Positions 7,476 to 34,239 of a DNA stretch of 35,329 nucleotides are shown here, one piece after another. Below the pieces are notes generated by a model. It ran no database searches. It saw nothing but the letters and a program-made list of their open reading frames with translations, and was not told where the DNA came from. The position numbers and the translations under genes were made by a program. Source of the stretch: Nemertoderma westbladi. Taxonomy: Eukaryota; Animalia; Xenacoelomorpha. The DNA is taken from NCBI GenBank assembly GCA_032718475.1, contig JAUCBJ010001473.1:1-35329 (forward strand), read 5' to 3'. The stretch's first letter is position 1. The number at the start of each line of letters is the position of its first letter.

Positions 7476-7611
7476 TGTTGCTGCACGTGTGAACTTAGCC
7501 TTTTAGATTACTTATTTTACTAATTTTAAGTTCAAAACACCATTTTATATTGATAAAGTTGGTACGATATAATATCGTCTATTTTGGTTAAATTATGCTT
7601 TACTAAGGGTG

Positions 7612-9660: not shown

Positions 9661-9710
9661 AAAATTAGTGACCACATATTTCTATTTAATAAACCTTTCA
9701 TGTTTTATAG

Positions 9711-10005: not shown

Positions 10006-10093
10006 TAATACCAACAATAACTTTGTGTTGAATCCGACTAAAGGCTGTAGAAATTTCGCACTGTTGTTGTATTTATTCCATCCATGTGTAAAT

Positions 10094-10146
10094 CTGATAG
10101 GTGAAATATATGTAAGCACCATGCTTACATATATTTCACCTATCAG
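10094..10146. repeat. Perfect 25-bp inverted repeat with 3-nt loop
   Basis: CTGATAGGTGAAATATATGTAAGCA-CCA-TGCTTACATATATTTCACCTATCAG. Confidence 0.95.
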
Positions 10147-11713: not shown

Positions 11714-12916
11714 TTAGAAGTTTATTAACTAATATATTACGAGCGCCCTTGTAATTATGTTACCCCCCTTTCAATATATTTTACCCCCTTTTCAAATATC
11801 TTGCCCCTATTGCAATACCCCCCCCCCCCCCCCCCCCTCCGTCAACCTATTGTATCTATTAACTATATATGATAATTATTGTATCTACCAAATTCTTTGT
11901 TTTTATTTATTTAACGTTTTCGCGAAACCAATGGATTATGCAATGGGCCGGACTCTTCGATATGTGATGGACGGTGGTCTTCACGGTCGAAATTGAATGC
12001 AACGGATTATGTACCATCACGGCTAGTATAAATGATACGTAATATATTTATTATACTACTTCTGGAATTAAACCCACCTATTGTAATATATCAGTATTAT
12101 TCAGGCATACTTTTATTCCACAAAGATATTGATTTCATTTTAATATAAACTATTTCTACTGTGATGCTCTTATTAATACTACAGTAATATAAAATTTAAT
12201 AGTATTATAAATTATTGTTAGTAAAGTAACTTTAACTTTTAGTAAGTTAGTTTGTTTGTTTTTAATCCTTATATCTTAATTTAATACCGACTCACTCACT
12301 ACATTCGTAAGTTCTTTTGCACTGTGACATTCAAGGTATCAGAAAACAACATGGACAGAGACAGCATGTGTCTCCGTGTCTGAATAATACCAACGCGGTC
12401 CCTTCATTGGAGAAATCAAAGTATTTAAAGTATTTACTAAGACCACAGTCACATCGGTGGAAGGGTTAACAGAGGTATGGGGTTTGGATGTCGGTATGCC
12501 TGTTTGATGGAACTGATACACAGACCCGGGGATGGGTAGCCTCGACCTAGAACCTGTCACGTGGAGTAATATCTAACAATGCCGACGGTCTCTACAGTTC
12601 ACATCACTGGGGCTGTTCATTGGCGCGCGGCTAGTTCTGGAGACTTTTGAGCTGTGGGGATCTCCGATTGGCTGCTGGTTTATTTTGTACTTGCCGCTTT
12701 TCTATAGGGTGAACGGCCAGTTCGGAAGACTTGTTTGGCTCTTGAGAGCTGTGGTTGGCTGCGGTTTTACTTTTGATCATGCTGATTTTCTATATATTGG
12801 AGCACTTCAACGAAATATTATTCATTTTCAATCCAGCCAGCAGAGTTTGCTCCCTAAGTTTTTCCTTCAGTTTACATTTGATTTCCTTTTCAGTCTTATT
12901 ACTGTATTATTTTCTG

Positions 12917-13562
12917 TGTAAGCGGATTCAATTCCACTTCATTACCCACCAGAAAATGGGACTAGTGGCATTTTAGCAATATGTTGGGGATACGAGATTA
13001 CCAATATTAATCTCGCCTCATAACCAACATTGGGGGGGGGGGGGGGACACAAGCCCCAAAGCCACAGAGAAAGGTGAGAGGTCAAACCACCTTGGAGGGG
13101 ATACAGCTAGTAGAGGCTAGCAGCGGAGGGGAAACACTCCCAGGGAGTGCGAAAGTGACAAGTAGTATATTAGCCAATAGTGGGGAGGGAAGCACGTGAT
13201 AGGGAACAGGAAAGCATCCATTGGGTAGAAGGCCAAAGGTAGAGTAGGAGGTAAACCAATATTCAATGTATTAATCATATATTATCTTACATTACTGGTT
13301 TACCGGTCAGTTGTGTTATTCAGTTCAGTGAGTGCAGACCGGTCATAGTTAATGACCGCCGCCGCCATACCGGTAACAATTAATCTGTATTCTCTGCTTT
13401 TATCTAACTACGTGCTATTATCGTCCATGTTAATTAATATCGAAAGACAACAGGAACTTTCACTGTTTTCCCGAAAGGCCTCAGCCAAAGCTAGTAGCAC
13501 GATCCCAGCAGAACGGTGACGCGTACATTTCTAACCCGGTCAGGATCTCCGATCCCGTCACA
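12917..13562 (+). repeat. 5' LTR (LTR-A, 646 bp)
   Basis: TGTAAGCGGATTC...GATCCCGTCACA. Matches 26141-26498 joined to 33350-33644, with roughly 15-20 differences counted by eye. Confidence 0.95.
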
Positions 13563-15200
13563 GTCATTAACTCTACCACCTGCCAATAAACTGTGACTGC
13601 AAGAACAAAGAGATCGAGATGAGCGATAGGGAGCCCCGATTATCAGAGGGAGAGAGGACGCCGCCGCGGACCCCGGACGATACCAACCAAACGATCCGCG
13701 AGGCCACGACGAGACGGTATCGGCCGGCCACGCCAGACTCGCCGATGAGAGACGATCCGGCTACCCAAGCGGAGGGTGGCCGTCAACCACGAGGGAGAGA
13801 CGAGTCGGCGGTCGGGGTAACGAAGTCGCCGGCCAGAGCCACAGGCCGAGGGTGACGGACAGCCCACCGGAACGGCGACGGTGGGGCAACCGGTACGACG
13901 CCGGACGAGGAGAGGAGGAGTCCGCGAAGAGGACGTCGGGACGAGTGATCAGCTACGACGGGCCTACAACGCCACCAAGAAACTGCTCAAGGAGGCCAAA
14001 GCAGGGAGATAGGTAGACCAGCCTAAACTGCATCAGGGGCTAGGTGAGTCGAATAAACATTTTCTATATTTAGTCTGTTTTGGACAGGGAGAACTGGCGA
14101 GTGAGAGAGCAAGGGGGGTCGCCATGGAACTGTCTGAATTGTGGCGATCCGGGGTAATGGAGCCTGAGGTAGTGTATGTAGGGCCTTACTTAGTGGATGC
14201 TAGGGGAATTAAGTTAGTGGGTTGGGCGGAACCGCACGATGGCGAACCCAAGGTTAACCCCGAGGATTCGGTGTCATTGGTCAGTGAGAACCCCAGAAAG
14301 CGGGGGAAAGTTAGTAGGACAGAGATGCGACGGGAGTCCGTCGAGACCAATAAGTCCGCTACATCCTCCGCAAAAGCAAGAAGGTGTTAGAGATCGATCT
14401 GGCGTGTCAACTAGACCTTGTGGCGCTGGATCAGCAGGAGTTGGAGAGGCAACTGGAAGAGGGAACCGCGTTATTAGAGAAAGAGAGAGAGTTAGCGAGG
14501 GAATGTAGAGAGAGGGCCAAGAGGGTGGCGGGAAACTGTAGGGAGCGGGAGGTGAGAGAGATAAACGAGCGCGAGGAGCGGGAGGCGAGAATAGAGAAAG
14601 AGCGCAAAGAAGAAGAAGCGGAAGAGGCAGCGAGGATAGGGAGGGAAACGAACAAACGTAAAGAGCGAGAAGTGAGAGAGGTAGTGAGGGCGGAGAGAGA
14701 AACGAACGAGCATAGAGAGCTGGAGGCAAGGGAGGCATAATTAGCGAACCAACATTTGCGAGAGGATAGAGAGAGAGAGAGAGCGGGAAAGCGTATGCAG
14801 GATGATATGCATGCCCGGTTAAGGGGGCTTATGCAATACCAGGCAAAGCAAAAGCGCCGATTAGAACTGGCGCAGTTGGGATTATCTGAGAGTGAGGCCG
14901 GTTCGCCGTAGTTCGGGTAGTATTTATGAGGAGCCCGAAGTAATGGAAACGTTTGTTAATACCCCACTTACAGGCACCGGGCGACAGACCCAGGACTGGT
15001 ATAACCGTACGGACGGGGGGGAGGGGGGTAATAATAATAATACGTTAGAAGGAATTAATATTAATAGAACCATAGTAGACAACCCTAATCACACCTTTGT
15101 TGCAGGAAATAATATTTTACCCGGTAATAATAACTTTGATTCAAATGTGCAAAATAATCCAAATAATAATATTAATTCAAACGTACAAAATAATCCAAAT

Positions 15201-16010
15201 GACTACACTAACACTAACACTAACCGAAGTAGCGCATAACGTCGCGGTCGAACCTCATTTGCAGCCAGTCACCGGTGAGCAGTTCATCCGACATTCCACT
15301 TCAACCGACGACCAAGCCCGCCTCGATGTGTCAGTCTGCGGTTTCTGGGGTTCCAGGTATCAGAAGATATTCCTGGATGTCTCCATCTTCAACCCCGTAG
15401 CCCCCACGAATGCTGCAATGCCTCTCGCCGATGCCCACCTCCATCACGAGGCCTGCAAGCGCAATCTTTATGACGAGCGGATTCGTGAAATTGAGTTGGC
15501 AACATTTACGCCGCTCATATTCTCGGCGTATGGTGGCTTCTCGCCAACCACGTCTCAGTTCGTGAAGCGACTCGGGATATTACTCTCAGAGAAGTGTGAG
15601 GCACCGTACTCCGAGTGTATTCGTTGGATCCGCCGTGAATAGAGTTTCGCACTCCTCCGCGTGGGTTTAATGTGTCTGCGGGGTGCGCGTTCTGCACGGA
15701 ATCGACCGGTACGCTGCGATACTCCGATACAGATGTCCAACTCCGACACCGACAAGTCGCCGTACCCATAGGCAACTAAATATAAAAAAACCTGTCTGCA
15801 TATCCAGGTTTTGAACTGCGCATCACGACTATTAGGCCTAATTTTAGTAATATACTGGTATTTTCTGATTTTTATGTAGGCCTATATTGTTATTGTTTAT
15901 ACTTGTTACCTAGGCTACGTCAGCTGGTGGTGGGACAATGTTTGTTTTTATATATTACATATATTGATATTAAAATGGAAGTTACAAATTAAAAAAAAAA
16001 AAATAATAAT
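15201..16010 (+). mobile_element. 5'-truncated CRE-clade non-LTR retrotransposon (RLE domain, 3' UTR, A/AAT tail)
   Basis: EPHLQPVTGE...ARLDVSVCGFWG...FLDVSIFNP...E..KRNLY..RIREIELATFTPLIFS..GG...CLRGARS. Poly(A) plus (AAT)n tail. AATAATCCAAAT at 15189-15200 and 16011-16022 is the likely TSD. Confidence 0.88.
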
Positions 16011-16243
16011 AATAATCCAAATAATAATATTAATTCAAAAGTACAAAATAATCCAAATAATAATTTTAATTTAAATGTACAAAATAATCCAAATAATCCT
16101 AATTTAAATATACCAAACATTCCAAATAATAGCCCTAACTCTGAGCAAAATAATTTAAGTGGTTTAAATAATTTAGATAACAATATTATTGATAATGGTG
16201 CTATTAATACGAATGTAGGGGACACAGGTGGTCCGGCCAGCGA

Positions 16244-16385
16244 GAGCCTGCAAGGCCACGTAGTTACGCAGGGAGTAGCGGGGGTGAGTCACCCCGACGG
16301 GAGCCTGCAAGGCCACATAGTTAGGCAGGGAGTAGCGGGGGTGAGTCAACCCGACGGGAGCCTGCGAGGCCACGCAGTCGCACAG
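16244..16385 (+). repeat. 57-bp in-frame tandem repeat (~2.5 units)
   Basis: GAGCCTGC at 16244, 16301 and 16358. Unit encodes SLQGHxVxQGVAGVSxPDG. Confidence 0.85.
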
Positions 16386-17629: not shown

Positions 17630-17907
17630 TGTAACACCCGATATGGACTGGAGTAATTTTGCCTCCACATTGATGAAGTATAACTTATAACTGACAGGGG
17701 AAGGTTGATTTGCAAAAAAATTATTTAGATATACTTATATAATAATATCTCAGCATAACTATCAGTGAGATTATCAAGTGGAGACTGCCGGTGTGACATT
17801 GGTATTCAAACATTCAATAAGCCAACGTGGTGTTAGATAGAACGTGGTGTGAGGTGTTAATAAGCATAACGAAACAAAACCGGTCGGGATCCACTGATCC
17901 CGTCACA
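17630..17907 (+). repeat. Putative second, different LTR (LTR-B) preceding gag copy B
   Basis: Ends CCGGTCGGGATC..GATCCCGTCACA like LTR-A but is unrelated upstream. Candidate start is TGTAACACCCG at 17630; alternative start TGTGAC at 17792. Confidence 0.55.
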
Positions 17908-17950
17908 GTACGAAATACCCAACTGTAAGCTGTGACTGCAGAAAGCAAAG

Positions 17951-20900
17951 ATGAGCAGCCAGGAGCCCCGAGACTTAGAGGGAGAGAGGACACCGCCGCG
18001 GACCCCGGACGATACCAACAACCTAACGATCCGCGAGGCTGCGACGAGACGGTATCGACCTACGACGCCAGATTCGCCGACGAGAGACGATCCGGCAGTC
18101 CAAGAGGAGGACGGCCGTCTACCACCAGGAGGAAGAGACGAGTCGACGCACGACGGCGGTCGAAGTACCGATGTCGCCGGCCAGCCACAGGCCGAGGGCG
18201 ATGGACGGCCCACTGGAACCGCCACGGTGGGGCCGCCGGTACAACGCCGAACCAGGAGGCGAGGAGGAGAGGTCGGCGACGAGGACGTCGGAACCAGTGA
18301 CCGGCTCCGACGAGCCTACAACGCGACAAAGAATCAGCTTAAGGAGGCCAGAGAAGGAGTAAAGATGACCAAGGGAAGTTGAGTCAGCGACTAGGTGAGT
18401 CGAATAAACATTTTAGATACCTAGTTCGCTTCAGACAGGGAGAACTAGCCAGTGAGAGAGCAAGGGGGGTCGCCACCGGACTATTTGAACTGTGGCGATC
18501 CGGGATTATGGAGCCCCAGATAGTGTACATAGGGCCGTATTTAGGGGTGCTAGGGGAGTTAAGTTAGTGGGTTGGGCAGACCCGCACGAGGGCGAATCCG
18601 AGATTAACCCCAAGGATTCGGTCTCGTCGGTTAGCGAGAACCCCGAAAAGCGGGGGAAAATTAGTAGGACAGAGAGGCGACGGGAGTCCGTCGCGACCGA
18701 TAGTCTGCTACATCCTCCGCAAAAGTAAGAAGGATGTTGGAGATAGATCTGGCGTGTCAGCTAGACATTGCGGCGCTAGACCAAAGAGGGTTAGAGAGAC
18801 AACTGAGCGAGGGAACCGCATTATTAGAAAGAGAGAGAGAGAGTTAGCCAGGGAATGTAGAGAGAGGGCCGAGAGAGTGGCGAGAGACTGTAGGGAGTAC
18901 GAGGAACGGGAGGCAGAAATAGAGAACGAGCGTAAAGAGCGAGAGATGAAAGTAGAGAACAAGCGTAGAGAGCGGGAGACGAGAGAGGCGATGAGAATTG
19001 AGAGGGAAAATAATGAGCGCAAGGAGCGTGAGCTGAGTCGGCTTGAGAGGGTTGCGAGAGAGGCAGAGTTGGCCGAGCAAAGTTTACGAGAGGATAGAGA
19101 AAGAGAGAGAGAGGGAAAGCGTATGCGGGATGATATGCATGCCTGGCTAAGGGGGCTTATGCAATATCAAGCCAAGCAGAAGCACCGACTAGAACTGGCG
19201 CAGTTGGGATTATCAGAGAGTGAGGCTGGCTCGGGTAGTATTTACGAGGAGCCAGAAGTAGTGGAAACGTTTGTTAATATCCCACTTACAGGCGCCGGGC
19301 GACAGAACCAGAACTGGTGTAACCGTACGGGCGGGGGGGGGGGGGGGGTAATAATAATACGTTAGAAGAAATTAATATTAATAGTACCGTAGTAGACAAC
19401 CCTAACCAAACCTTTATTGCAGGAAATATTTTACCCGGTAATTAAAATTTAAATACAAATAATTCAAATACTAATTCCTATTCAAATATTCAAAATAATC
19501 CGAATAATTCTAATTCAAATATTCAAAATAATCCGAATAATTTAAATTCAAATATAGAAAATAATTCGAACAATAATTGAAATTTAGAAAATAATAATAA
19601 TTCTAATTTAAATAATTTAAATAATAATATTGATAACTGGGCTATTAATACTAATATAGGAGACACAGGTGGTCCGGCCAACCGAAGCCTGCAAGGCAAC
19701 GTAGTTAATACGCAGGGATTAGTCGCAGAGTACATACCGGTAGGTAGGCAAGAAGTGGATAGGCCTACATCGGTACCAGCACAGCAGCATGACTATAATA
19801 TGCAGGGACATAACATATATCCAGGGGAGGGGAGAGTTATTGCGGATAGATGTATGGGCCCCAATATATTAACATCAACCCCAGTACCAAACATAATGCC
19901 GGTGGGGGGGGGGGGGGGGGCAGGGTAACATTCCCCCATTACAATATCAACTCAAACAGGAATAAGAACATCGAACCCCCTGGACGAGAACAGGTCATGC
20001 GATACGGAAATATGGAGGGGGCCATTACCGCCAATTATATATCCGACACAAGTTAAGTCAACAGGCCCGACGGGCGGACCGCACCCAACAGGAGAATCTG
20101 TACAGCATCCTTCGAACCCATTGGAGCACAGGCAATGGGAATGGCTACACTAATCGATGCACTGAAGACCAGGATCGAGTTACCACCAGTCGAGCCATTT
20201 AAATTCGACGGAAGTAGGCTGGAAGAATACCTGCAATTTCGGCGCATGTACAGCAACGAGATATTAAGTAAGAACCTGACGCAGGCGGAGTGCCTAAAAT
20301 ATCTACAGGTATATACAGGAGGCCCAGCGTACGACATCGTGAGGCAGTATCAGGGCATCGGGGGCGGCTTCACGACTGCATGGCGGGCCCTAGACAGGGA
20401 ATACGGATACCCAGCCAAGATCATCTGGCAAACCCTGAGGGGTATAACATCGGATGGCCTACAGGATAACCCCGTCAGCATAAAGACGTTTGCGAACAAA
20501 GTCAAGAAGGCGTTAATCATGCTGAAGACGCTAGACGCGCCATACGAACTCAACGCATCTAATAACATCACCACAATAGCGCAGGCACTGCCGATCTGGC
20601 TACGGAGCAAGTGGAGGAAGATCGCCTTCTCCACTCAGGAGAAGAAAGGTGCGGCGCCAGGGCTAGAGGAAATGTCAAACTTCCTCAACTATGAAGCAGA
20701 GTTGATTACAGACCCAGTCTATAGTGAGGATAGTTTGGGGAAGGCGCCAAAGACCGAATACAACAGGCCTAAACCCGAACACAATCCTGCAGATCCATTC
20801 ACGAGAGTAAGACAGTTGCTACCACACGCAGCCACACAGGGGGCTACAAGCCCACAGTTAGCTGGGAGTAGGGCCACACCGTGGTAGGGACAGAAAGAAA

Positions 20901-21190
20901 ATAACAACACAAATAAACATAATCCCAACATAACCAGTAGGCCGAGTCCAGATAACCAAAACACTAAATCGGTAGACATAAACCTACGCGCGATACGTGA
21001 AGGACTATGCAGGGAATGCTATAATCCAGGATTCGAATGTCAATTACATCGGGACGGAACCCATAAGACCATGAGTTGTAAGCACTGGCAAGTGTTGCCT
21101 AACAAGATCGTATAGCCTACACAGACGCAAACGGACTATGTCATCGTTGTGTGGTAGAAGGACACAGATCCGGAGAGTGTGGAGAAACAG
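17951..21190 (+). pseudogene. gag: BEL/Pao gag, copy B: leader, coiled coil, Asn-rich segment, capsid (DUF1759-like) and CCHC knuckle
   Basis: ELPPVEPFKFDG...EYLQF...CLKYL..YT.GPA...AW.AL.REYG...LPIWLRSKW (20135-20887) is a typical BEL Gag capsid. GLCHRCVVEGHRSGEC lies at ~21134-21180. Several frameshifts and stops. Confidence 0.9.
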
Positions 21191-21239
21191 CAGTAGGAGA
21201 CAACGAGACTGGAGGCCAAACAATGGCTACAAGCACGAC

Positions 21240-21770
21240 AGGAGTAAGAAGAAAGAGGAAAGTACTACTCGGAGTAGTACCAGTGAAGATATCAAGAAAG
21301 GGCGGTCGATCAGTTACAACATTAATGCTGGTCGACAGCGGAGCAGCCTTCACGCTGGTGGAGAATTGGGTGGCCGAGGAGATAGGGTTACAGACGAGGC
21401 CGAGTAGGTTGGCGGTAACTACTGTCTCAAGTAAAGACGAAGTCCTGGAGATGAGGATGGGACGGTGCAAGATATCAGCGATCGCACCGTGATGTGACTA
21501 TGGGGCCACCATCGACCCCATCCAGGCGATAGAATCGATAAATATCAACGCCAGGCGACCAACCAACATTGAGGTCGAACAATATAGATTCCTGGACAGT
21601 ATCGATTTCACAATGCCAGAGGTGGACGTTAGGAAGGTATCCATTATAGTAGGAATGGACTGCCCGATGGCCCACAAGAGAATGCAGACTGTCTTCGGCG
21701 AAGACAGACAGTGGGATCCGACGGCGATCCTCACGCCGTTCGGATGGACGCTTAGCGGCCCAGTTAAAAC
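21240..21770 (+). pseudogene. BEL/Pao aspartic protease region
   Basis: VLLGVVPVKI...MLVDSGAAFTLV (catalytic DSG), then SIIVGMD and PTAILTPFGWTLSGP, the BEL-specific post-protease motif. One in-frame TGA at 21490-21492. Confidence 0.9.
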
Positions 21771-21996
21771 CAAGATTCCATCCAGGGTGACGGAGACATC
21801 AGGGTGCATGTTACCAGGCACCGTAGACGCAGAAGACAAAGAGAAGAAACCGGAGATGGTAGATGAGCCAGATGGGGAAGTAACAGTAGGAGAGTGGGCG
21901 GAGGAGAATGGATTTGACACGGAAGACTTAGAGGCAATGGGATGGAACAAGGGTCCCAGCAAGTATCGGTATGGGGATGGAGAGGAGCGGACGGCG

Positions 21997-22121
21997 AGAT
22001 GTCCAGAGGACAACCCGGAGGAGTGGACGGTGAGATGTCCGGAGGACATCAGTCCGGAGGAGTGTCCGGAGGAGTGTCGGAAGGAGTGTCCGGAGGAGTG
22101 TCCAGAGGAGTGTCCGGAAGA
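21997..22121 (+). repeat. 12-bp repeat encoding (CPEE)n
   Basis: GAGTGTCCGGAG units; the protein reads SPEECPEECRKECPEECPEECPEE. Confidence 0.9.
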
Positions 22122-22269
22122 GACGCCGGTCTGGTTGAGAGGCATACCGACAAAGGGGAGGTCGAGTAAGAAGACATGGTGGAAAGAGAGAGGATGTGGG
22201 AAGATTAAACCAGGGACAGAGAAGCCCATGATGAAACGTGACAAAGTGGGAAAGTGGGAGAGGGCGTGT

Positions 22270-22811
22270 TGTACACGCATAAGGAGGTGGCAGAGTGCGA
22301 AAGGGCATTAAATGGTAAGCCATTACGTGTACCAAAGGATGACTGGGAATCATCGAGGGCTTTAATGCCGGCGCACATATTAAGGGGGAGGCCAGCGGAG
22401 GTGGCATGTACCAGTAAGAATGACATGAGGGGCGGCATTCTACCGCCAAACGATGACAAGATGAAGGGTGGCACTTTGCCACCAGGGGACGACCACGACG
22501 AGATCAGTAACATGACAGAAATACCCGATTTAAGGATGGAAGAGAAGGGAAGGTCAGTTCCAAGAGAGTTGGAATTGACAAGGAGAGTGGGGTGACGAAT
22601 TAGAGGACCTACAGGGGGGCAGTGGGAGGGTTGCCTGCTGGAAGAATCACCCATAGGTTGTCCAATAAGTTGGACTGAAGGGGGGGGGGGGGGCGAAGAT
22701 GGAAGAGTCAGATCCGTAGGAGTGAGAATAGGGGGCAAAATAGGAGCAAAAGATAGGAAGACCTACAGGAGGGCTGTAGGAAAGTGCTGCCTATTAGAAG
22801 GGGCACCGTAG
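22270..22811 (+). pseudogene. Remnant of BEL integrase C-terminus and DUF5641-like tail
   Basis: AECERALNGKPL...LMPAHILRG matches 'E.E..LNSRPL...LTP.HFL.G'. GEDGRVRSVGVR...YRRAVGKCCLLE matches the terminal 'G.DG.VR.V...Y.RP..KL' motif. Confidence 0.8.
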
Positions 22812-22975
22812 AGTTTAGTCGTCCAAATGTTGGACTGAGGGGGGTGGAAATGAGGGTGAGACGCCCTTCCCACACATAATATAAAAAAAAATAAATTTAA
22901 TTAAAATTAAGAAGTGAGATAGTAGAAAGTTAGAAAGTAATAGTAGTAGATAGTACGTAGCACTAAGTAAGTAGT

Positions 22976-23603
22976 CAGAAGTTAGGGAGTGTGGTACATT
23001 GACATACCACGAGAGTAGTAGGGTACATAGTACCATAGGCAGAAGTTAGGGAGTGTGGTACATTGACGTACCACGAGAGTAGTAGGGTACATAGTACCGT
23101 AGGCAGAAGTTAGGGAGTGTGGTACATTGACATACCACGAGAGTAGTAGGGTACATAGTACCATAGGCAGAAGTTAGGGAGTGTGGTACATTGACGTATC
23201 ACGAGAGTAGTAGGTTACATAGTACCGTAGGCAGAAGTATAGGGAGTGTGGTATATTGACATATCACGAGAGTAGTGGCAGGGTACATAGTACCGCTGGT
23301 AGAAATTAGAAGTATAGGGAGTGTGGTATATAAACATACCTCGAGAGTAGTGGCAGGGTATATAGTACCGCTGGTAGAAGTTAGAAGTATAGGGAGTGTG
23401 GTATATAAACATACCACGAGAGTAGTGGCAGGGTATATAGTACCGCTGGTAGAAGTTAGAAGTATAGGGAGTGTGGTACATAAACATACCACGAGAGTAG
23501 TGGCAGGGTATATAGTACCGCTGGTAGAAGTTAGAAGTATAGGGTATAGGGAGTGTGGTATATAAACATACCACGAGAGTAGTGGCAGGGTACGTAGTAC
23601 CGT
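22976..23603 (+). repeat. Tandem array: four 64-bp units followed by about five 75-bp units
   Basis: CAGAAG at 22976, 23040, 23104, 23168 and 23232. AGAAGTATAGGG at 23233, 23308, 23383, 23458 and 23533. Confidence 0.95.
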
Positions 23604-23994
23604 TAGAGTTAGAAGTTAGAGTTAGTAAGAGTTAGTAGTAAGAGAGTAGAGAATACAGTATATAAATATTCCATAAGAGTAATAGTAGGGTACATAGTAC
23701 CGTAGAGGTTGTGGGCACAGAGAGCGCCACGAAAAGAGAGGGGGGCACGTGGGTACAGCAGGATAGACCGTGTAGGCCGCACGAGACAGACTACTGTACT
23801 GCAAGGCCCATAGAGTAAGTTAGGATGTTTGATACAGGGCCAGGAGGCCACCTGGTACAGACTAGCACAGTAGAGAATAGCTAGTCTACCCTGTATACAA
23901 ACTATAGGGGTTATCTAAGTAAAAATAACCCACATAAGCGATAATAGCATACCAATAAAAATTAAAGTAGTATTAGAAGTAAATCCGACAAATT

Positions 23995-25415
23995 ATGGCA
24001 ACAGTAAGTAAAAGATTTTAGAACATAATAAAAGTAACTGACAGACGTACCGAAGTATCCGAGAGAACCACCGAGAAAGGACTGAATGAGGTTCATAGAG
24101 TCTGTAAACAGGGGAGGATACATGGTCCTAGACGACGAGGGGACTGTGGAGGACAAAGAGGGTTCGAGAAGAGGGTCGGTGGGATCGGCTAGAACCATAC
24201 CACTACTGCATTTGGCTGCGCCAAATGGAGACATATTCCTATTCGATATAGGAACGTACGGCAAGAAGAGCGGGCCGAAGTTAAACAGGTTGCCAAGGGC
24301 GGTGCAAGACCTAGTAAGGAAGAAGACAACGGTGAAAGTGGGATCGGCGATCCGCGACGATGCGGAGAGGATCGTCGGACCGGAGACCCCCAACCTCCTG
24401 GACATGCAAGCAGTCTATATGGCCATGACAGGGCCAGACGGGTTGCGATTGGTAGAGAAGACAGGACATTGAGGAGCAGTGGCGATGGGCCAGCTCATGG
24501 GGCTCGTCTGCCACAAGCCGATGGACTGGGGTAAGTTCCGGGAGGAGTACGGAGCGGAGCTGGCGAACTCGCTGAAGTGGGGAGCGAGGCCAGGGAAACA
24601 GGAGGTGTATCAGTTCCGGAGAGGAGCGATAAAGATATATATCAGAAGAGATATATCCTACAGGAGGATTGGATAATGATAGGTTTACTAAACCTATTCA
24701 TGGCTGTGGTTATCGGAAGAGAGCCGACGGCGTTTCTTCTATCAGGATCACCCCTGAACTACAGAAGGGGACGAGTTGCCTCTACTGCCGCGAGTCGAGC
24801 CATAGGATGGGAGCATGTCCGAGGCTGCACAACTGCTGTTCTAAGTGTAACTTCCGAGGGCACTATGGGCGCCAGTGCGACTGGATGGACAACGAGGAGA
24901 AGTTTAAGATCTTCGAGGAGTGGGCCGACGTCAGTGTTATGACGCGACAGAGGATGAAGGCCCAGGAGTTCCGGTGGGGTTTCTTCAACATCAATCAGGA
25001 AGCCCATCTGGAGATTATCAAGAGGAGACTGCCAATCACATACCAGGAGGTAGCGACAGCGGCGTCGCATGGAGGAGTCATCAACACGCAGAGGTATTTG
25101 GATAGATGGACGCCAGAAAACAGAGGAGAGTTTAGGGATTTTCTGGTGGAACACGTGCCGCAAACCATGAAAATGATCTTGTGGGAAGCTACCAGGGGGA
25201 AGCAGGAGGGGCATTTGGAAAGGCCACCTGGAAAGCGTTACCGGGAGTTAATAACACCAGCACCCAAAGAATCGACCACGGGAATTAGCAAGGCAGTAAC
25301 GGCGAGAATGAGGAGTCTCAGAGAGGACAAACCAGAGGGAAGGAAGCGGCCCAGACAGGACGATGATAGAGGGAATGAACTAAGATGGTTCCCGAAGATG
25401 GGAGGAGCGAACTAG
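23995..25415 (+). pseudogene. Extra ORF: DEDDy-type (WRN/RNase D-like) 3'-5' exonuclease plus two CCHC zinc knuckles; disrupted
   Basis: MVLDDEG (ExoI-like DxE), LLHLAAPNGDIFLFDI, LPRAVQDLVRKKTTVKVGSAIRDDAERI (ExoII-like KVG..I..D), LLDMQ, W..RP. Then CLYCRESSHRMGAC and CSKCNFRGHYGRQC. Split across ORFs 24086-24472, 24479-24676 and 24669-25415. Confidence 0.75.
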
Positions 25416-26102: not shown

Positions 26103-26140
26103 ATGCTATCTTCTCACCGGGAAGATAGCATGGGAGGGAG
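26103..26140 (+). promoter_or_regulatory. 11-bp hairpin followed by the polypurine tract
   Basis: ATGCTATCTTC-TCACCGG-GAAGATAGCAT, then GGGAGGGAG directly abutting the TG of the 3' LTR at 26141. Confidence 0.9.
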
Positions 26141-26498
26141 TGTAAGCGGATTCAATTCCACTTCATTACCCACCAGAAAATGGGACTAGTGGCATTTTAG
26201 CAATATGTTGGGGATACGAGATTACCAATATTAATCTCGCCTCATAACCAGCATTGGGGGGGGGGGGGGGCGACACAAGCCCCAAAGCCACAGAGAAAGG
26301 TGAGAGGTCAAACCACCTCAGAGGGGATACAGCTAGTAGAGGCTAGCAGCGGAGGGGAAACACTCCCAGGGAGTGCCAAAGTGACAAGTAGTATATTAGC
26401 CAATAGTGGGGAGGGATGCACGTGATAGGGAACAGGAAAGCATCCATTGGGTAGAGGGCCAAAGGTAGATTAGGAGGTAAACCAATATTCAATGTATT
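26141..26498 (+). repeat. 3' LTR, left part
   Basis: Matches 12917-13272 and stops at the CRE insertion. Confidence 0.95.
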
Positions 26499-26722
26499 GA
26501 TAAAGTATTGATTGGTGGGTTTTTTGACCATGAAAATGGGGTACGTTACGTACTGTACATCAGTATACCACAGTACAGCACAGCAGTACAGTCTTTGATA
26601 CTGCCGACAGCCAGACTGCTTGGCGCCAAACAAACGAGGCAAACATAACGGCGTTTTGATATTGCCGACAACATTTAACCTTCGAGGATTGCGGACATTG
26701 CTAGTTACCAACCAGCACAGGG

Positions 26723-29700
26723 ATGCCCTTTTGTTGCGGATGTGGTATAAACGGAACTTGCAAACGCGGTGCGTGGTGCGCCTGCGTGAGGGCAAGCCGA
26801 GAATGTTGGGACTGCGTTCCCGGCAAGCGAAGACGGTGCATGAACGGCGGAGTCGGTTCGCCGACTACCCAGTCTCAACCCAACCCGATTAGTGATGGAC
26901 AACGAAACCTGCCGGCGCCAGCGATCACGGCCTTCTCCCAGCCGTCTCCATCCGAGTTGGAGAGGGGTGACGATTCCCTCGACGATACGTTGTTGGACAT
27001 GTCTGACAGCGATTGCTCTTTTCACTCGCTGAGCGACACGTTGGTGCCTCGATGTTCCCCTTACCGGGACAGTAAGTCGGCCACATCGAGCCCTGAAGGC
27101 AGAGGGTTGAGTCCGGTTGTCGGTTTGTCCGTCCACATCCACGCGGGTCCGCCTGTCGGTTTGTCTGTCACCACGAGCACGTCTGTCGGTTTGTCTGTCC
27201 CCACGGTTGGGCCGTGCAAGGGTCCCCCAGACCAGATGGGTCCCCCAATTCACAAGGGTCCCCCTGACCAGTTGGGTCCCCCTGACCAGTTGGGGCCCCC
27301 AGACCATTTGGCCCCCCCAGACCAGTGGAGTCCCCCCGTTCACAAGGGTCCCCCCGTTCATAAGGGTCCCCCAGACCAGTTGGGTCCCCAAGACCAGTTG
27401 GGCCCCACAGATCAGCTGGGCCCCCCCGTTAATAAGGGTTCCCCAGACCAGTTGGGTCCCCCCGTTCATAAGGGTGCCCCAGATCAGTTGGGTCCCCCCG
27501 TTCATAAGGGTCCCCCAGACCAGTTGGGTCACCCCGTTCATAAGGGTCCCCAGCCCCCCGTTCATAAAGGTCTCCCAGACCAGTTGGGTCCCCCCGTTCA
27601 TAAGGGCCCCCCTGTTAATACGGGCCCCCCTGTTCAGTTGGGTCCCCCAGACCAGTTGGGTCCCCCCGTTCACAAGGGTCCCCCCGTTCAGTTGGGCCCC
27701 CCAGACCAGTTGGGTCCCCCTGACCAGTTGTGTCCCCCAGACCAGTTGGGTCCCCCAGACCAGTTGGGCCCCCCCGTTCATACGGGTCCCACCGTTCATA
27801 ACGGTCCCCCAGATCAGTTGGGTCCCCCCGTTCATAAGGGTCCCCCAGACCAGTTGGGTCCCCCCTTTCATAAGGGTCCCCCAGACCAGTTGGGTCCCCC
27901 CGTTCATAAGGGTCCCCCCGTTCACAAGGGTCCCCCATTTCCCTTGGGTACCCCAGACCAGTTGGGTCCCCCCGTTCACAATGGTCCCCCATTTCAGTTG
28001 GGTCCCCCAGACCAGATGGGTCCCCCTGTTTACAAAGGTGCCCCCGTTCAGTTGGGCCCCCCAGACCAGTTGGGTCCCTCAGACCAGTTGGGTCCCCCCA
28101 TTCAAAAAGGACCCCCCGTTCACAAGAGTCCCCCCGTTCAGTTGGGTCCCCCAGACCAGTTGGGTCCTCCCGTTCACAAGGGACCTCCCGTTCAAATGTG
28201 TCCCCCAGACCAGTTGGGCCCCCCCCCGACCAGTTGGGCCCCTCCGACCAGTTGGGTCCCCCCATTCATAAGGGTCCCCCAGACCAGTTGGGTCCCCCCG
28301 TTCATAAGGGTCCCCCAGACCAGTTGGGTCCCCCTATACAGCTGGGACCCTCAGACCAAATAGGTCCCCCTGTTCAGTTGGGTCCCCCCATTCATAAGTG
28401 TCCCCCCGCTAAGGTGGGTCCCCCTGACCAGTTGGGTCCCCAAGACCAGTTGGGCCCCCCACATCAGTTGGGTCCCCCAGACCATTTGGGTCCCCCACAC
28501 CAGATGGGTCCCCCCGTTTATAAGGGTCCCCCCGTTCAGTTGGGTCCCTCAGATCAGTTGGGTCCCCCAGACCAGTTGGGTCCCCCCCTTCATATGGGTC
28601 CCCCTGTTCAAAGGGGTTCCAGTACCTTTGACGACACATCGCCCTTCGGCTCACACTGGACTCCCGAAGCACCCCGCAACTCGGACCCCCAAGACCTGAT
28701 GATGAGGGCGTTTGGGGCCCCCTTGGTGGGTAAAGGTGCTCCGCCAGATGGATTGCTCCACCAGTGGAGGAGGGCCACTCAATTACGCGGCTCCAAGTAT
28801 AGACAGCCTGGGGGGGCCGTGGGTCGTGATATGGTTGAGCTGTTGACGTCGGAAGCCACAGCTTTTGTGGCGGGTTTGAGACATAACGTTGCGAACGCGC
28901 GTTCCGAACGGATCCTCCTCGCAGACTCGCTGCTCCTTCACCGGGACCCTAGGGTCATCAAAGCCGCAGATATCCGACGCCTCCTCATCCGCCGACTTGA
29001 AATGTGGAGGTCAGGGCGGCTTGAGGCGCTGCTTCAGGAGGCGGAGCGCTGCTCCAGTAAAGTTGGATCTGGAAGGCAGACCAAAGCCAAGACCCCGGAT
29101 GAGGACAAAGACCACACAGTTCGAGTTTTTACTCGCCTGATGTTGGAGGGCAAAGTGAGGAGCGCGGTTCGGTGGGTCACAAATCGTGAGGGTGGGGGGG
29201 TGTTAGACCCTGATGATGACGCCATCGATGCTGAGGGAAGAAAGGTTAAGGTCATCGACCTTCTTCGTGCCAAGCATCCCCCTGCCTCCCCACCTCCACC
29301 TGAGGCCCTTATCCAACTCGATGAGGACCTCCCTGTCTGGGTCGACGTCGACGTTACTGCCTCCCACATAGAGTCCTCCGCGCGTCGACTCCATGGAGGC
29401 GCTGGACCTGCCGGCTCCGATTCAACCCGCTGGGGCGATTACCTCCTTCGTTACGGCGCCCACAGCGAACGCCTCCGGGACGCGGTTGCTGAGATAGCAC
29501 GTTCCCTTTCCAACGCTGTCGTACCCTGGGAGTCGGTGCGCGCCCTGATGTCCTGTCGTCTGATCGCCCTGGATAAGTGCCCGGGGGTCCGCCCAATCGG
29601 CATCGGGGAGTGTTTACGGCGGATTCTCGGCAGATCCCTGGCCGAAGCAACGGGGGATGACGTCACCGCGACCTGTGGCGCCGAGCAGCTCTCCGCCGGC

Positions 29701-31545
29701 ACGTCAGCCGGCGTCGAGGCCGCCGTCCACACGATGGCGGAGTTGTTTGAGGACCACAAGGAGGACGGCTGGGGAGTTCTCCTCGTCGACGCGTCCAACG
29801 CGTTCAATTCGATGAACCGAACGGCCGCGTTGTGGAACGCTCGTCAGCTGTGGCCCAGGTGCTCACTGTTTTTGTTTAACTGCTACAGGGGGCACAGTAT
29901 GTTAATTATTAGAGGGACCAATGTGGTTCTATTTAGCGAGGAGGGAACCACCCAGGGCGATCCCCTTGCGATGCTGGAGTACTCGACCGGTATACTCCCC
30001 CTCATCCACCACCTGAGAAAGCCCCCCCTCATTCAGAACTGGTTTGCCGATGACTCAGCGGCAGCTGGCAGACTCTTCCTGATCCTGGAATGGTTCAGGG
30101 AACTGAAACGTCACGGCCCCACCCTCGGCTACTATCCGGAACCCACCAAGAGTTACCTCGTCGTAGCTCCACAGTACGAGGAGGAGGCCCGTAGAGTTTT
30201 CGCTGGCCAGGAGATAAATATAGTAACGGGACACCGTTTCCTGGGCGGGTATCTTGGTGGGACTGCAGAGCGATTGGGTTACGTTCAGGCCAAAGTTGCT
30301 GCGTGGGTCGCATCGGTTGATCGTCTCTCAGAGATGGCCGAGACCCAACCCCAAGCCGCGTTCGCTGCCATGGCCGGCTCCCTCCAACGGGAGTGGGCTT
30401 ACCTCCAGCGCGTAACCCCAGACTGTGTCGATGAGTACCAGGTGCTGGAGGACGCGCTGACTGAGCGTTTCCTTCCCGCAGTGTTTGGCGGACCGATCTC
30501 CCCAAACGAGCGTTGTCTGTTCGGCCTCTCACCTCGCACTGCAGGTCTCGGACTGCGGAATCCGGTGTCCGAGGCGGCCCACTCGTTCGATATATCGCGA
30601 GCTGGAACCCGGACCATCGCGCAGTCGTTATTGGGAGATCGGCAGTTCTCGCTCACGGACCACCGTAATTGTTTACAGCGAGTGCGGAAAGAAGGACGGG
30701 ACCAACAGCTCGGAAGGGAGAGGGCTAGTCTGGAGGCCGTGCTGGACGAGTTCCCACAGGGCCGCCGTCGGACGGTCGAGCGCGCCGCCAACTTCCGCTC
30801 CAGTGGGTGGATTTCCTCCCTCCCAATAGCCGAACACCAACTTGATCTCTCCCCCATGGAGTTCCGGGATGCGCTGGCGATCCGGTACGGCCGCCCCCTG
30901 GCGGCGGTGCCGAGTCGGTGCGATGGGTGCGGGGCCGCCTTCGATTTAAACCACGGTTTAAATTGTAAAAAAGGCGGCCTCGTAATCCAAAGACACAACG
31001 AGCTCCGGGATGTGGTCGGTGATCTCGCGGCGCGCGCGTTCGGGCCCCGGAACGTCACCCTCGAGCCGGTGGTCCGCGAACAGCAGGGAGTAGACGGAGC
31101 AGCAGGTCTCCGTTGTGATGTGGGGATTCGGGGTGCGCTAAACCCGCAGACCCAGGCGTTGATCGATATTCGGGTTGTAAACCTTGACGCCGGGTCATAT
31201 GCGGGTCGCACCCCAATGTCTGTCCTGGAGTCGGCCGAGGACCAGAAGAAGAGGCTGTACGCGGACGCAGTGACGGCCCGACGGGGCGACTTCTCGCCGT
31301 TCGTCGCCTCATGCGACGGAGTTCTCGCGCCGCAAGCGAACCATCTTCTCCGTGTGGTGGCAGACCGGCTGCACCGATCGTGGGGGCGGCCCTATAGCGT
31401 CACAATGGGCTGGATCCGTACGCGGGTTCAGTTGGCCATTATTAGAGGGGCCACCCACTGTCTGCGGGGCTCCCGCACCAAGTGGAGAAGCGCTCGGGGG
31501 CCGGATGATGGCGCAGGGCTGCCAGAAAGCTGGCAACCGGTGTAG
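26723..31545 (+). CDS. CRE polyprotein (~1600 aa if one frameshift in a C-run at ~28219-28227 is corrected): Cys-rich N-terminus, GPP repeats, RT, CCHC finger, restriction-like endonuclease
   Basis: MPFCCGCGINGTCKRGAWCACVRASRECWDC; RLIALDKCPGVRPIGIGE; LLVDASNAFN; GTTQGDPLAM; WFADD; CDGCG...HGLNC...RHNELRD; RCDV...DIRV...E..KKRLY...FSPFV. ORFs 26723-28363 and 28198-31545 carry the same repeat frame on either side of the C-run. Confidence 0.92.
27217..28612 (+). repeat. 18-bp coding minisatellite (~75-80 units; PDQLGP / PVHKGP / PVQLGP)
   Basis: Units CCAGACCAGTTGGGTCCC and CCCGTTCATAAGGGTCCC are interspersed throughout. Confidence 0.97.
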
Positions 31546-31738
31546 TACTGTGGTACAATGTAGGTGTATAATAATATATAAACATAAAAACAATCAATTC
31601 AATTTATATTTACTGTGTTTGGTGGTGGTGCAGTTTTAACTGTTTGTTGTTTAAGTTTTTAAATTTCCCGCGATTATTTAGTAGTAATTACACTGTGTTC
31701 TAGATCAATAAAATGGGACACTATATTCAATGTATTAA

Positions 31739-33349
31739 GGGGGGGGTACACCCCCCTATGGACCTTTTTTGCAAATGGCTATAATTTCTGCTTGTGTGTA
31801 ATTTTGTATATTTTATACCTTTCGGGGGATTAACATATGGCCAAAGATTGGGTTCAAAAAAAAAATTTTCAAATTTGCGTCGCCCTCTAGCGGCCACCAG
31901 CGAAATTGTTAATTTCACTAAAAACACTACTAGTCTCACAATTTTGGACGAAAATTTTCTAAACTTAGTTTTTCTGAATCAGCATCCTCGGCTCCACAAA
32001 ACTGATCGGTTACATTTTTATTTAGGTCTTAAATATTTTTTAAATATTATTAACTAATATTAATTATTACTTAATAGATATTAACTAATTTCAAGAAATT
32101 AATATGGCACAATTCAAAATTCTAACCGATAACTTTTGACCAAAACCCGAAAAGAAATCAAACAAAAAAAAAATTTCGAAAATTGGTTAAGAAATGGCTG
32201 AGTAGTAGTATTTTGAATGTGAAAAATACAATTCCGAGATAAACGCATTTAAAGTTTAAGAACAATATATTTCAAATGTTCCCGCTATTTTCAGTACTGG
32301 TATCTCTTATTTTTCCATTGGTTATCCCCTATCCATATTTTGTGATTTCTCAATGGATTTCATGAAATTTGGTTCAAAAAAACCCCTACCCACTTTTAAC
32401 AACCTGTTAAAATAATTTTAGAGTGCTTGCCAAAAAACACTTCGCGCAGCACGTGAACAAATTTCATTTTGGCGAATTGATTTGATCGCATACTATTTCG
32501 TCATTTAGTAATAAATAGTCATGGAATAATGAGACAACCTTAAGAAACATTCAAAATTATATAAAAATTTCCACATAATTTTATAATAAGCCTTTACACA
32601 GAACATTAAGCTTTGCGCAGCACGTGAAACCTTCGCGCAGCACGTGAGACATTTGCGCAGCAGGTGAAGGTTTCACGGAGCACTTAAATTCTTCATAAAG
32701 CACGTTAATTAATCGAGCACCTCGGAATGCTTTTTGATCAGAATGAGAAGCCTTCACGCGGCACATGAAAAGTTTATGCTGCACATGAAGACTTCGCGCA
32801 GCACGTGAATTATTCTCAGAGCCTGCGGAATTTAAAAAAAATAAGTTTATGGTTGTTTCCCAGAATAATTATTACTAGCTATTGTTATATGATTGTTCAC
32901 ATTTGTTATTACTAGTAGAAAACTAGTCCATTGGACAACTGTTCAATAAGTAATACAAAACTCACAAATATCTATTAAATATATATTAATTAAAATTTGA
33001 CGGACATGTTGACAGACAGACAGACATACAAACAGACAGACAGACAGACAAACTGAGAGACAGACTGAGATACAGACATAGTGATTAGATAATTCCAAAT
33101 ATTAAAACAGACATCGACATTAAGAAAAATATTAATGGTAAACATTTCAGATTGCTTATTTTATGCCCTTTTTAATATTTCGACGGACAGACAGACAGAC
33201 ATACAGACGGAAAACCAGCCATTACTCGAGAAGTAAAAGAGATCTCGCTAAGCCGTTTCCAGATTTGAAATCCGCATTAAATTCTACTCTAGATGAAATA
33301 AAAAAACAAAAAATGAAAATTTTGACCTGAGGGGGGGTGTACCCCCCCC
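31739..33349. mobile_element. Non-autonomous DNA transposon with 18-bp TIRs and TTAA TSD (Kolobok-like)
   Basis: TTAA|GGGGGGGGTACACCCCCC ... GGGGGGTGTACCCCCCCC|TTAA. The empty site in the 5' LTR has a single TTAA (GTATTAATCATA). Purine-start termini with a TTAA TSD fit Kolobok rather than piggyBac. No transposase ORF. Confidence 0.88.
32440..32810. repeat. Internal short repeats CTTCGCGCAGCACGTGAA within the DNA transposon
   Basis: Copies near 32440, 32611, 32631, 32651 and 32792, plus degenerate ones. (GACA)n tracts at ~33010-33080 and ~33183-33210. Confidence 0.85.
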
Positions 33350-33644
33350 TTAATCATATATTATCTTACATTACTGGTTTACCGGTCAGTTGTGTTATTC
33401 AGTTCAGTGAGTGCAGACCGGTCATAGTTAATGACCGCCACCGCCATACCGGTAACAATTAATCTGTATTTCTGCTTTTATCTAACTACGTGCTATTATC
33501 GTCCTATATTAACTAATATCGAAAGACCAACAGGAACTCGTTCACTGTTTTCCCGAACGGCCTCGGCCAAAGCTAGTAGCACGATCCCAGCAGAACGGTG
33601 ACGCATACATTTCTAACCCGGTCGGGATCTCCGATCCCGTCACA
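33350..33644 (+). repeat. 3' LTR, right part
   Basis: Matches 13271-13562, ends GATCCCGTCACA and is followed by the TSD TTCTG. Confidence 0.95.
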
Positions 33645-34239
33645 TTCTGATTCTGTTCTATCATGCCCCGAGACCACAAGGGCAAGTCATCCTCGCAGTG
33701 GGATGTCATCCTCAAAGGATTTGCCGAGTCGCGGCAAATTGCTTCTGCTTACTTTTCGAGAGGACAGCATCCCCGTAATCCCGAGGTCAAACTCAAAGTG
33801 GATGCAATATCGAAGTGCAGGATGCACACCAGGATCGGGACTTTGTTTCATCCCACGGGTGCACCATCGACTGAACACTGAATTAAGCTGCAGCTGCGGT
33901 TATCACTATGTCAAGGTTAGTTTCGTTTGTCAGTTTGAATAATTATAAAATATATTATAGGCCTATTCGCCTGACCAAATGGGCGGACAAATAATGTGAC
34001 ATAAAATATGGCATACTTTATGAACGCCCCCTATTAGCTTACCCAAACTGGCAAGTTAATTCGCTTGTTAAAATTGGCAATTACTGTATTGTATTTATTT
34101 TACTATTTATTTTATTATTATTATTATATGTATTTATTTTGTTTTGATTTATTTAATTAGTATTTGATTTTATTTTAACAAACTTTTTTTTAAGAGTGTA
34201 GGCACTTGTTATACTATCATATTATTATTTACTCCATAG

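What the first reader, a model, noticed from the sequence alone, without database searches (positions are those of the whole stretch)
20135..22811. Gag-protease joined to an integrase tail with RT, RNase H and the integrase core missing and (CPEE)n in their place
Seen: only ~500 bp separates the post-protease motif (TPFGWTLSGP, ends ~21763) from the integrase-end motif (ERALNGKPL, ~22300). That gap is acidic low-complexity sequence with CPEE repeats, not RT remnants. The locus nevertheless has similar LTRs and a perfect TSD. Inference: a non-autonomous lineage that keeps its own capsid, protease and exonuclease but borrows RT/IN from a helper, i.e. a satellite or possibly interfering element rather than a one-off deletion.
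Basis: partly seen in the sequence, partly recalled or inferred. Interest (0 to 1): 0.75.

Follow-up and report, generated by a model that had tools for sequence, protein, structure and literature searches.

The report
RT-less BEL/Pao family kept in frame
This is one broken copy of a repeated animal jumping-gene family that kept its shell protein and protease but has a low-complexity spacer where its copying and inserting enzymes should be, so it likely borrows them from a helper that I could not find; the design is known from plants and mice, but I found no description of it in this branch.

Summary
The locus is a BEL/Pao LTR element (LTRs 2.2% diverged, 5-bp target duplication). Only about 172 codons lie between the protease end and the integrase-end motif, against 941-1011 in 11 complete relatives. 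Profiles for the protease-RT connector, RT, RNase H and the integrase zinc finger and core find nothing. The junction is not a one-off: thousands of diverged contigs from three sequencing studies cover Gag, protease, spacer and tail. Differences shared among copies are mostly synonymous (12 of 17), and all 6 measurable rearrangements in the protease-spacer stretch keep the reading frame, one or two of them by deleting the protease active site. So the family is a 'semi-autonomous' element whose open frame seems to matter more than the spacer's letters. No helper was found, so trans-mobilisation is inferred, and nothing supports an interfering role. The layout is known (wheat Sabrina_SA, ATHILA, mouse IAP 1-delta-1); new are the BEL/Pao setting, the non-pol filler and a DEDDy-like third ORF. 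An unrelated BEL/Pao protein cluster shows the same Gag-protease-integrase-tail layout on six contigs. New variant of a known kind.

The parts
12912..12916 (.). left target-site duplication TTCTG
12917..13562 (+). 5' LTR, 646 bp, TG..CA
13563..13572 (+). leader start; no TGG primer site; exact complement of LTR 13347-13356 (self-priming lead), inside a U5-leader stem
   Evidence: 43 of 20000 shuffles
13533..16278 (+). first 5' block (R-rich ORF, coiled-coil, N-rich repeats), about 75-78% like the second block; carries an unrelated insert near 15239-15970; no Gag core follows it
17630..17907 (+). inner LTR-like stretch (TGTAAC..GTCACA); only its last 31 bp resemble the outer LTR; no partner copy in the window
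17936..19928 (+). second 5' block: R-rich ORF, E/R coiled-coil ORF, N-rich region; likely the long N-terminal part of Gag (inferred from relatives' length before DUF1759)
20135..20884 (+). Gag core, DUF1759
20888..21200 (+). zinc-knuckle region, broken by a frame change near 21100 in this copy
21223..21774 (+). aspartic protease, DSG at 21334, TPFGW motif at 21733; in-frame stop at 21490 private to this copy
21763..22241 (+). non-pol spacer: acidic stretch, CPE(E/D) array 22015-22122, basic stretch; 0 stops in the protease frame, 10 and 6 in the other two
22290..22391 (+). end of the integrase core (E..LNxxPL...L.P.H.L), in another frame than the spacer in this copy
22692..22802 (+). last third of DUF5641 (integrase C-terminal tail), degenerate
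22971..23620 (+). tandem array, 64- and 75-bp units
24086..24676 (+). DEDDy-type 3'-5' exonuclease-like ORF3, with a stop at 24470 and a later frame change
   Evidence: 27 of 30 atlas hits DNA_pol_A_exo1, top score 0.95; Pfam and PDB sequence searches blank
24633..25415 (+). ORF with two CCHC-type knuckles, possibly the continuation of ORF3
   Evidence: atlas leads under 0.9 only
26131..26140 (+). polypurine tract
26141..26498 (+). 3' LTR, first part
26499..33349 (.). two later insertions in the 3' LTR: a non-LTR element with a 14-bp duplication (26499-31736) and a TTAA-flanked terminal-inverted-repeat element (31739-33349)
33350..33644 (+). 3' LTR, second part
33645..33649 (.). right target-site duplication TTCTG

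Best explanation
The locus is a decayed copy of a multi-copy BEL/Pao LTR family that has Gag and protease but a non-pol spacer in place of RT, RNase H and most of integrase, and that likely spreads by making its own particles from one long open frame while borrowing RT and integrase from a complete relative. Shown: the anatomy, the absence of pol domains, the target duplication and near-identical LTRs, the spread of the spacer over many diverged copies, the excess of synonymous differences in Gag-protease, and frame-keeping rearrangements through the spacer. Inferred: that the RNA is translated through the spacer into the integrase tail; that this read-through helps the RNA that encodes it (cis preference for packaging, as reported for mouse IAP 1-delta-1, or escape from decay of messages with early stops); that the spacer's sequence and the integrase tail are mostly passengers; that a helper with matching LTR ends supplies RT, RNase H and integrase. 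The helper itself was not seen.
For: Missing domains: (172 codons versus 941-1011 in 11 complete relatives). Integration by an integrase after reverse transcription: TG..CA ends, PPT, TTCTG duplication, LTR K2P 0.022. Family, not one-off: 9070, 5189 and 5270 contigs laid in runs X1, X2, X3, all 30 bins covered, summed depth 5,200-23,000 over the spacer against 7-54 for most single listed contigs; at least 12 listed contigs of 8-16% divergence cover parts of 22250-22480; a third study (X5, 16 of 25 contigs under 90% alike) runs from the protease 50 bp into the spacer, goes on with acidic codons, and has repeat-like letters before the tail. Selection: of 38 listed sites, those segregating among copies are synonymous in 12 of 17 (expected about 0.29, p 5e-4), those private to this copy in 4 of 14, the middle class in 1 of 7. 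Frame: 6 of 6 joints in the protease-spacer stretch whose inner letters are known change length by a multiple of three; small indels listed at 21244-21252 and 21952-21953 come in pairs of matching depth that cancel or sum to three, and the 2 contigs per run that span 22247 put spacer and tail in one frame (table 4). Precedent for a cis-acting in-frame fusion in a non-autonomous element: IAP 1-delta-1 (PMC6466679, PMC7411935).
Against: No helper found: no genome held, no close protein relative (best 34% identity), no hits in metagenome or viral contigs. Logan contigs are short, none spans the whole stretch, so linkage of Gag-protease to spacer to tail in other copies rests on overlapping pieces, and complete-pol copies may contribute to the Gag-protease depth and to the synonymous excess. 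Depth drops about threefold after the protease and again at the tail (within-Gag noise is as large). The tool showed only 40 of 609 substitution rows, 12 of 32 indel rows, 15 of 49 joints and 24 of 1162 loose ends. Three of the 6 frame-keeping joints lie in a 12/36-bp repeat, where slippage gives multiples of three anyway; a 2-base loss at 22049 (about 11% of depth) has no listed partner; of 7 joints with unknown inner letters only 3 would be in frame if clean. X1 and X3 are one sample and may be the window's source. No RNA evidence was available.
Confidence: 0.75

Rival explanations
1. The family is a plain parasite: its RNA is carried by a helper's particles, and the protein it once made no longer matters; the frame and synonymous signals are inherited from complete-pol ancestors or come from complete-pol copies mixed into the contigs.
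For: Derivatives that delete the protease active site reach depth 159-366 (joints 21284>21954, 21322>21802, 21180>22180). The tail is degenerate and further deleted in some copies. Short contigs cannot separate complete from RT-less copies.
Against: The spacer itself, which has no counterpart in complete elements, has 0 stops in 159 codons of the protease frame against 10 and 6 in the other frames, and the two protease-deleting joints with known inner letters are in frame.
Confidence: 0.12
2. The Gag-protease-spacer-tail protein is a dominant-negative or host-favoured restriction factor that poisons the helper's particles.
For: Only analogy (truncated Gag restriction in Ty1, recalled). The same layout recurs in another BEL/Pao cluster.
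Against: The element is dispersed, high-copy, with young LTRs and ordinary decay in this copy; no fixed, intact, LTR-less locus was seen. Nothing here measures an effect on a helper.
Confidence: 0.05
3. The junction arose once in a dead copy and was multiplied by DNA-level duplication or conversion, not by retrotransposition.
Against: Copies span under 90% to over 99% likeness, show purifying selection and frame-keeping indels, and this copy has its own target duplication with LTRs far more alike (2.2%) than the family's internal spread.
Confidence: 0.05

Closest known systems
Semi-autonomous Ty3/gypsy elements of plants: wheat RLG_Sabrina_SA and WHAM (PMC9744471, passages), Fatima subfamilies 1.4/1.5 (PMC6097303, passages), gag-protease-only ATHILA (bioRxiv 10.64898/2026.03.20.713144, passages), 28 GAG/PROT families of sugar beet (PMC13570524, passages)
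   Same: High-copy LTR elements that keep Gag and protease, lack RT, RNase H and integrase (about 3 kb lost in ATHILA, about 2.4 kb here), and are thought to be moved by an autonomous partner; shorter derivatives lose the protease too; ATHILA also carries an extra ORF after pol.
   Different: Those are plant Ty3/gypsy; this is an animal BEL/Pao. Here the gap is filled by a non-pol, repeat-bearing spacer that stays in frame into an integrase tail. Their partners are identified; this one's is not.
Mouse IAP 1-delta-1 (via PMC6466679 and PMC7411935, passages; the primary paper was not held)
   Same: Non-autonomous element with an internal deletion that leaves one in-frame Gag-to-pol-end fusion, reported to act in cis while Gag and Pol come in trans.
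   Different: A betaretrovirus-like ERV with a clean 1.9-kb gag-pol deletion; no filler, and it does not keep a whole Gag and protease. The cis effect there is measured; here it is inferred from frame statistics.
BEL/Pao retrotransposons (PMC3118150, PMC7642597, passages)
   Same: DUF1759 Gag, zinc knuckles, protease with TxxGW end motif, integrase end and DUF5641 tail in the same order; LTR length within the 0.2-1.2 kb range; 5-bp duplication.
   Different: RT, RNase H (Peptidase_A17) and integrase zinc finger and core are absent; no TGG primer site; ORF3 is exonuclease-like, not an envelope.
DEDDy ORF3 of bdelloid LTR elements Juno and Vesta (PMC5408684, passages)
   Same: A DEDDy-type exonuclease ORF between pol and the 3' LTR; the top atlas cluster for this ORF is mostly rotifer.
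   Different: Those elements have complete gag and pol; function unproven there as here. Common origin was not tested.
Protein cluster of P0043 (unnamed ENA contigs)
   Same: In-frame Gag-knuckles-protease-integrase end-DUF5641 without RT; 6 of 13 members, on 6 contigs, 92-96% identical, share one junction; protease-to-integrase-end distance 171 residues.
   Different: About 20-24% identical to this element, keeps its native connector and half the integrase core, has no filler: an independent origin. Its DNA could not be fetched, so a gene-caller's false intron is not excluded.

Membership tests
BEL/Pao LTR retrotransposon (lineage) | DUF1759 Gag and BEL/Pao-type protease | tested here: met
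   the 10 long relatives tested all carry Peptidase_A17 and DUF5641
BEL/Pao LTR retrotransposon (lineage) | LTRs with TG..CA ends, PPT and short target duplication | tested here: met
BEL/Pao LTR retrotransposon (lineage) | Domain order protease, RT, RNase H, integrase | tested here: inconclusive
   remaining parts are in the right order, the middle is missing
Autonomous BEL/Pao element | RT, RNase H and integrase core present | tested here: not met
BEL/Pao superfamily (BEL, Pao, Tas, Suzu, Sinbad, others) | Placement in a protease-RT-integrase tree | not tested
   RT and integrase absent; no named references in hand
Semi-autonomous Gag-protease element (Sabrina_SA type) | Gag-protease without RT and integrase in many copies | tested here: met
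   linkage in other copies rests on overlapping short contigs
Semi-autonomous Gag-protease element (Sabrina_SA type) | Gag-protease frame under purifying selection | tested here: met
   12 of 17 segregating sites synonymous, p 5e-4; 38 of 609 rows used; complete-pol copies may contribute
Semi-autonomous Gag-protease element (Sabrina_SA type) | Autonomous partner sharing LTR ends and primer site | not testable with these tools
   no genome; collections blank
Semi-autonomous Gag-protease element (Sabrina_SA type) | Independent insertions, each with its own target duplication | not testable with these tools
   only this copy's flanks are seen
IAP 1-delta-1 type (in-frame fusion acting in cis) | One frame from Gag to the end of pol | tested here: inconclusive
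   broken in this copy; other contigs differ at 20124, 21100, 21490 and 22247; no listed row for the stops at 20885 and 22593
IAP 1-delta-1 type (in-frame fusion acting in cis) | Translation needed in cis for mobility | not testable with these tools
   only indirect frame statistics
DEDDy 3'-5' exonuclease | Family resemblance and ExoI-III acidic residues | tested here: inconclusive
   atlas 0.95 to DNA_pol_A_exo1 clusters; DxE and second-motif D visible, third motif lies across a frame change; Pfam, PDB blank; single-sequence fold unusable
Self-priming LTR element (Tf1 type, features recalled) | Leader start complementary to the RNA's 5' end, no tRNA site | tested here: inconclusive
   10-nt complement in both LTR copies, 43 of 20000 shuffles; absent in the inner block; start of transcription unknown

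The most novel reading that the evidence does not exclude
BEL/Pao elements repeatedly evolve a division of labour: a long-lived, high-copy partner that supplies capsid and protease, keeps one frame open through any filler to the integrase tail because translation to the end licenses its own RNA for packaging, carries a DEDDy exonuclease, primes on its own RNA, and lives off a scarce pol-bearing helper; the same layout arose independently in other animals.
Probability: 0.2. Interest if true: 0.65.

Novelty: new variant of a known kind. Interest (0 to 1): 0.42.

Why it matters
Gag-protease-only partners are well described in plant Ty3/gypsy elements and an in-frame cis-acting fusion in mouse IAP, but my searches found no such family described for BEL/Pao. 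This family offers a natural test of why non-autonomous elements keep a reading frame: the spacer has no pol ancestry, varies freely in length, and yet stays in frame, so frame and protein function can be separated by counting indels in many copies. RT-based surveys, which is how BEL/Pao elements are catalogued, would miss such families altogether.

Tried and rejected
No whole genome was held, so no copy census. Word-seeded protein searches with the protease-spacer piece, Gag (longer) and exonuclease (longer) found nothing (weak evidence). Metagenome and viral contig scans with Gag, the spacer protein and an LTR-start pattern were blank. No RNA holder was listed; this says nothing on expression. 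Single-sequence fold of the exonuclease was unusable (pLDDT 36), so no fold search. Idea that the spacer is a decayed protease-RT connector: rejected at profile sensitivity. Idea that the Gag-protease unit is a second element nested with its own LTR pair: no second copy of the inner LTR-like stretch and no matching duplication; a recombinant of two subfamilies fits better but is untested. Hairpins at 22660 and 22820 are not more stable than shuffles. No tRNA genes. Look-ups of earlier findings by place and sequence were blank. Paper searches for a BEL/Pao precedent; the tool cannot match the slash in 'BEL/Pao', Repbase and most subscription papers are not covered, so absence from print is weakly shown. 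PMC3286476 (passages) describes non-coding repeat-filled elements, not this layout. No supplements were read.
Full report
Anatomy. Self-comparison shows one LTR element from 12917 to 33644. The 5' LTR is 646 bp with TG..CA ends; the 3' LTR starts at 26141 behind a polypurine tract and is split by a non-LTR element with a 14-bp duplication and a TTAA-flanked inverted-repeat element. The two LTRs differ at 14 of 645 sites (K2P 0.022) and TTCTG flanks both ends. Inside lie two related 5' blocks (75-78% alike), then Gag (DUF1759, E 2.2e-9), zinc knuckles, an aspartic protease (E 1.2e-6), the spacer, an integrase tail, a tandem array, an exonuclease-like ORF and a two-knuckle ORF.

What is missing. 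The Gag search returned 988 relatives at E<=0.001, the best at 34% identity; the 10 longest that I scanned of the 150 listed are complete BEL/Pao polyproteins. Profiles cut from those 10 were run over all 1048 stop-free six-frame pieces of the window: Gag, knuckle, protease, integrase end (E 6e-4) and DUF5641 end (E 0.025) are found in order; connector, RNase H and integrase core give no hit at E<=1, RT and the integrase zinc finger only chance-level minus-strand hits. The two weak hits are reached by 0 of 1000 shuffles each, and a connector profile from 34 relatives gives the spacer no score. Protease end to integrase end is 172 codons here and 941-1011 in 11 complete relatives: about 800 codons are gone and about 160 codons of unrelated sequence stand in their place. 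The CPEE array is about a fifth of that.

Is the junction unique? No. Six runs were listed, three holding the stretch; I laid four on 19660-22870. X1, X2 and X3 laid 9070, 5189 and 5270 contigs, most 90-99% alike, covering 30 of 30 bins; X1 and X3 are one sample and may be the source, X2 is a second study. Summed depth over the spacer is 5,200-23,000, over the tail about 1,900-10,200, over Gag-protease about 6,400-120,000, while most single listed contigs have depth 7-54. The tool warns that this is no copy number; hundreds of copies is my inference. X5, a third study with only 25 contigs (16 under 90% alike, 22 of 30 bins), has a 1179-base contig that runs from the protease 50 bases into the spacer and continues with acidic codons, and another loose end with repeat-like letters before the tail, so the RT-less form predates that divergence (inferred from 30-letter loose ends). 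No contig spans the whole stretch, and depth falls about threefold after the protease, so complete-pol copies sharing Gag-protease cannot be excluded; the helper would be such a copy.

Selection. Of the 40 substitution rows shown (of 609) I used 38, leaving out the row at the stop and one beyond the long frames. Sites segregating among copies are synonymous in 12 of 17 (expectation 0.28-0.31 with transition weighting, p 5e-4), sites private to this copy in 4 of 14, the middle class in 1 of 7. The spacer has 0 stops in 159 codons in the protease frame, 10 and 6 in the others. Of the joints listed, 6 in the protease-spacer stretch have known inner letters, and all 6 change length by a multiple of three; 2 more, which remove the end of the tail and its stop, do not; 8 have unknown inner letters and cannot be judged (3 of the 7 inside the frame would fit if clean). 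Three of the 6 lie in the repeat, where the unit length forces the result. Two of the 6, and one of the unknown ones, delete the protease's catalytic motif at 21334 and still reach depth 159-366. Small indels pair up in frame at 21244-21252 and 21952-21953; one 2-base loss at 22049 has no listed partner. The few contigs across 22247 (2 per run) place spacer and tail in one frame, and other copies also differ at this copy's breaks near 20124, 21100 and 21490; no row was shown for the stops at 20885 and 22593. The window copy is therefore a decayed member of a family whose frame was likely open.

Mechanism. Target duplication and matched LTRs show that this copy came through reverse transcription and integration, yet the family lacks both enzymes, so they must come in trans (established logic for LTR elements; helper not seen). 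Gag and protease under selection suggest the family builds or co-builds particles. That the frame survives through a spacer with no pol ancestry, even in protease-less derivatives, suggests that translation to the end benefits the RNA in cis more than any product does. The integrase tail is degenerate, lacks the first two thirds of DUF5641 and is trimmed in some copies, so I read it as a relic. An interfering role is neither shown nor excluded.

ORF3 and priming. The ORF at 24086 matches DNA_pol_A_exo1 clusters in the atlas (27 of 30 hits, top 0.95, mostly rotifer), while Pfam, PDB sequences and the word search are blank and the fold failed. DEDDy ORF3s are known from bdelloid LTR elements (PMC5408684). 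Neither 5' block has a TGG primer site; both keep a stem that pairs the LTR end with the leader, and in the outer block the first 10 leader bases complement a site in the LTR (43 of 20000 shuffles). The inner block lacks that match.

Comparison. Gag-protease-only families are common in plants, and mouse IAP 1-delta-1 has an in-frame fusion acting in cis. Among the 150 relatives, 14 carry both protease and integrase tail in one chain and 3 of these lack RT. One, P0043, stands for 13 proteins, 6 of which share the same RT-less junction on 6 contigs at 92-96% identity; another occurs twice in a pipefish annotation. These are independent deletions without filler; false introns by gene callers are not excluded. 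Eight paper searches found no described BEL/Pao family of this layout, with the limits given above.

Verdict. Real, family-wide, and of a known kind in a new branch with an unusual filler: new variant of a known kind, interest 0.42.

Noticed in passing
window 13347-13356 and 13563-13572; stems at 13555-13598 and 17900-17935: No tRNA-type primer site; the leader's first 10 bases complement a site inside the LTR, within a U5-leader stem kept in both 5' blocks. Possible self-priming; the inner block lacks the complement.
   Followed up: partly
window 13533-16278 versus 17630-19722: The 5' region is present twice at 75-78% identity, the second time behind an LTR-like stretch: likely a recombinant of two subfamilies; an assembly join was not excluded.
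   Followed up: partly
proteins P0043 cluster, P0058/P0168, P0081: Other in-frame RT-less BEL/Pao polyproteins, multi-copy in two cases; suggests the layout recurs.
   Followed up: partly
window 26499-31736: Non-LTR element with a 14-bp duplication and an intact-looking 1211-aa ORF (FADD motif, restriction-like endonuclease end; CRE-like by recalled motifs; no Pfam hit), preceded by an 18-bp array of 76 units in frame.
   Followed up: no
window 31739-33349: Non-coding inverted-repeat element flanked by TTAA with GG..CC ends (Kolobok-like by recall), holding 20-bp repeats; inserted directly next to the non-LTR element.
   Followed up: no
window 15239-15970: Short piece of a second CRE-like element (endonuclease end) inserted in the first 5' block.
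   Followed up: no
window 22548-22847: Internal duplication of about 150 bp around the end of the tail; depth jumps to 64,000-93,000 at 22792-22870 in three runs, so this piece may be shared with a larger family.
   Followed up: no
window 16278-17230: About 950 bp present only in the first 5' block, with 57-bp repeats and an R/E-rich ORF; origin unknown.
   Followed up: no
window 205-1411 and 5578-6205: Several short copies, in both orientations, of the 3' end of another non-LTR element.
   Followed up: no
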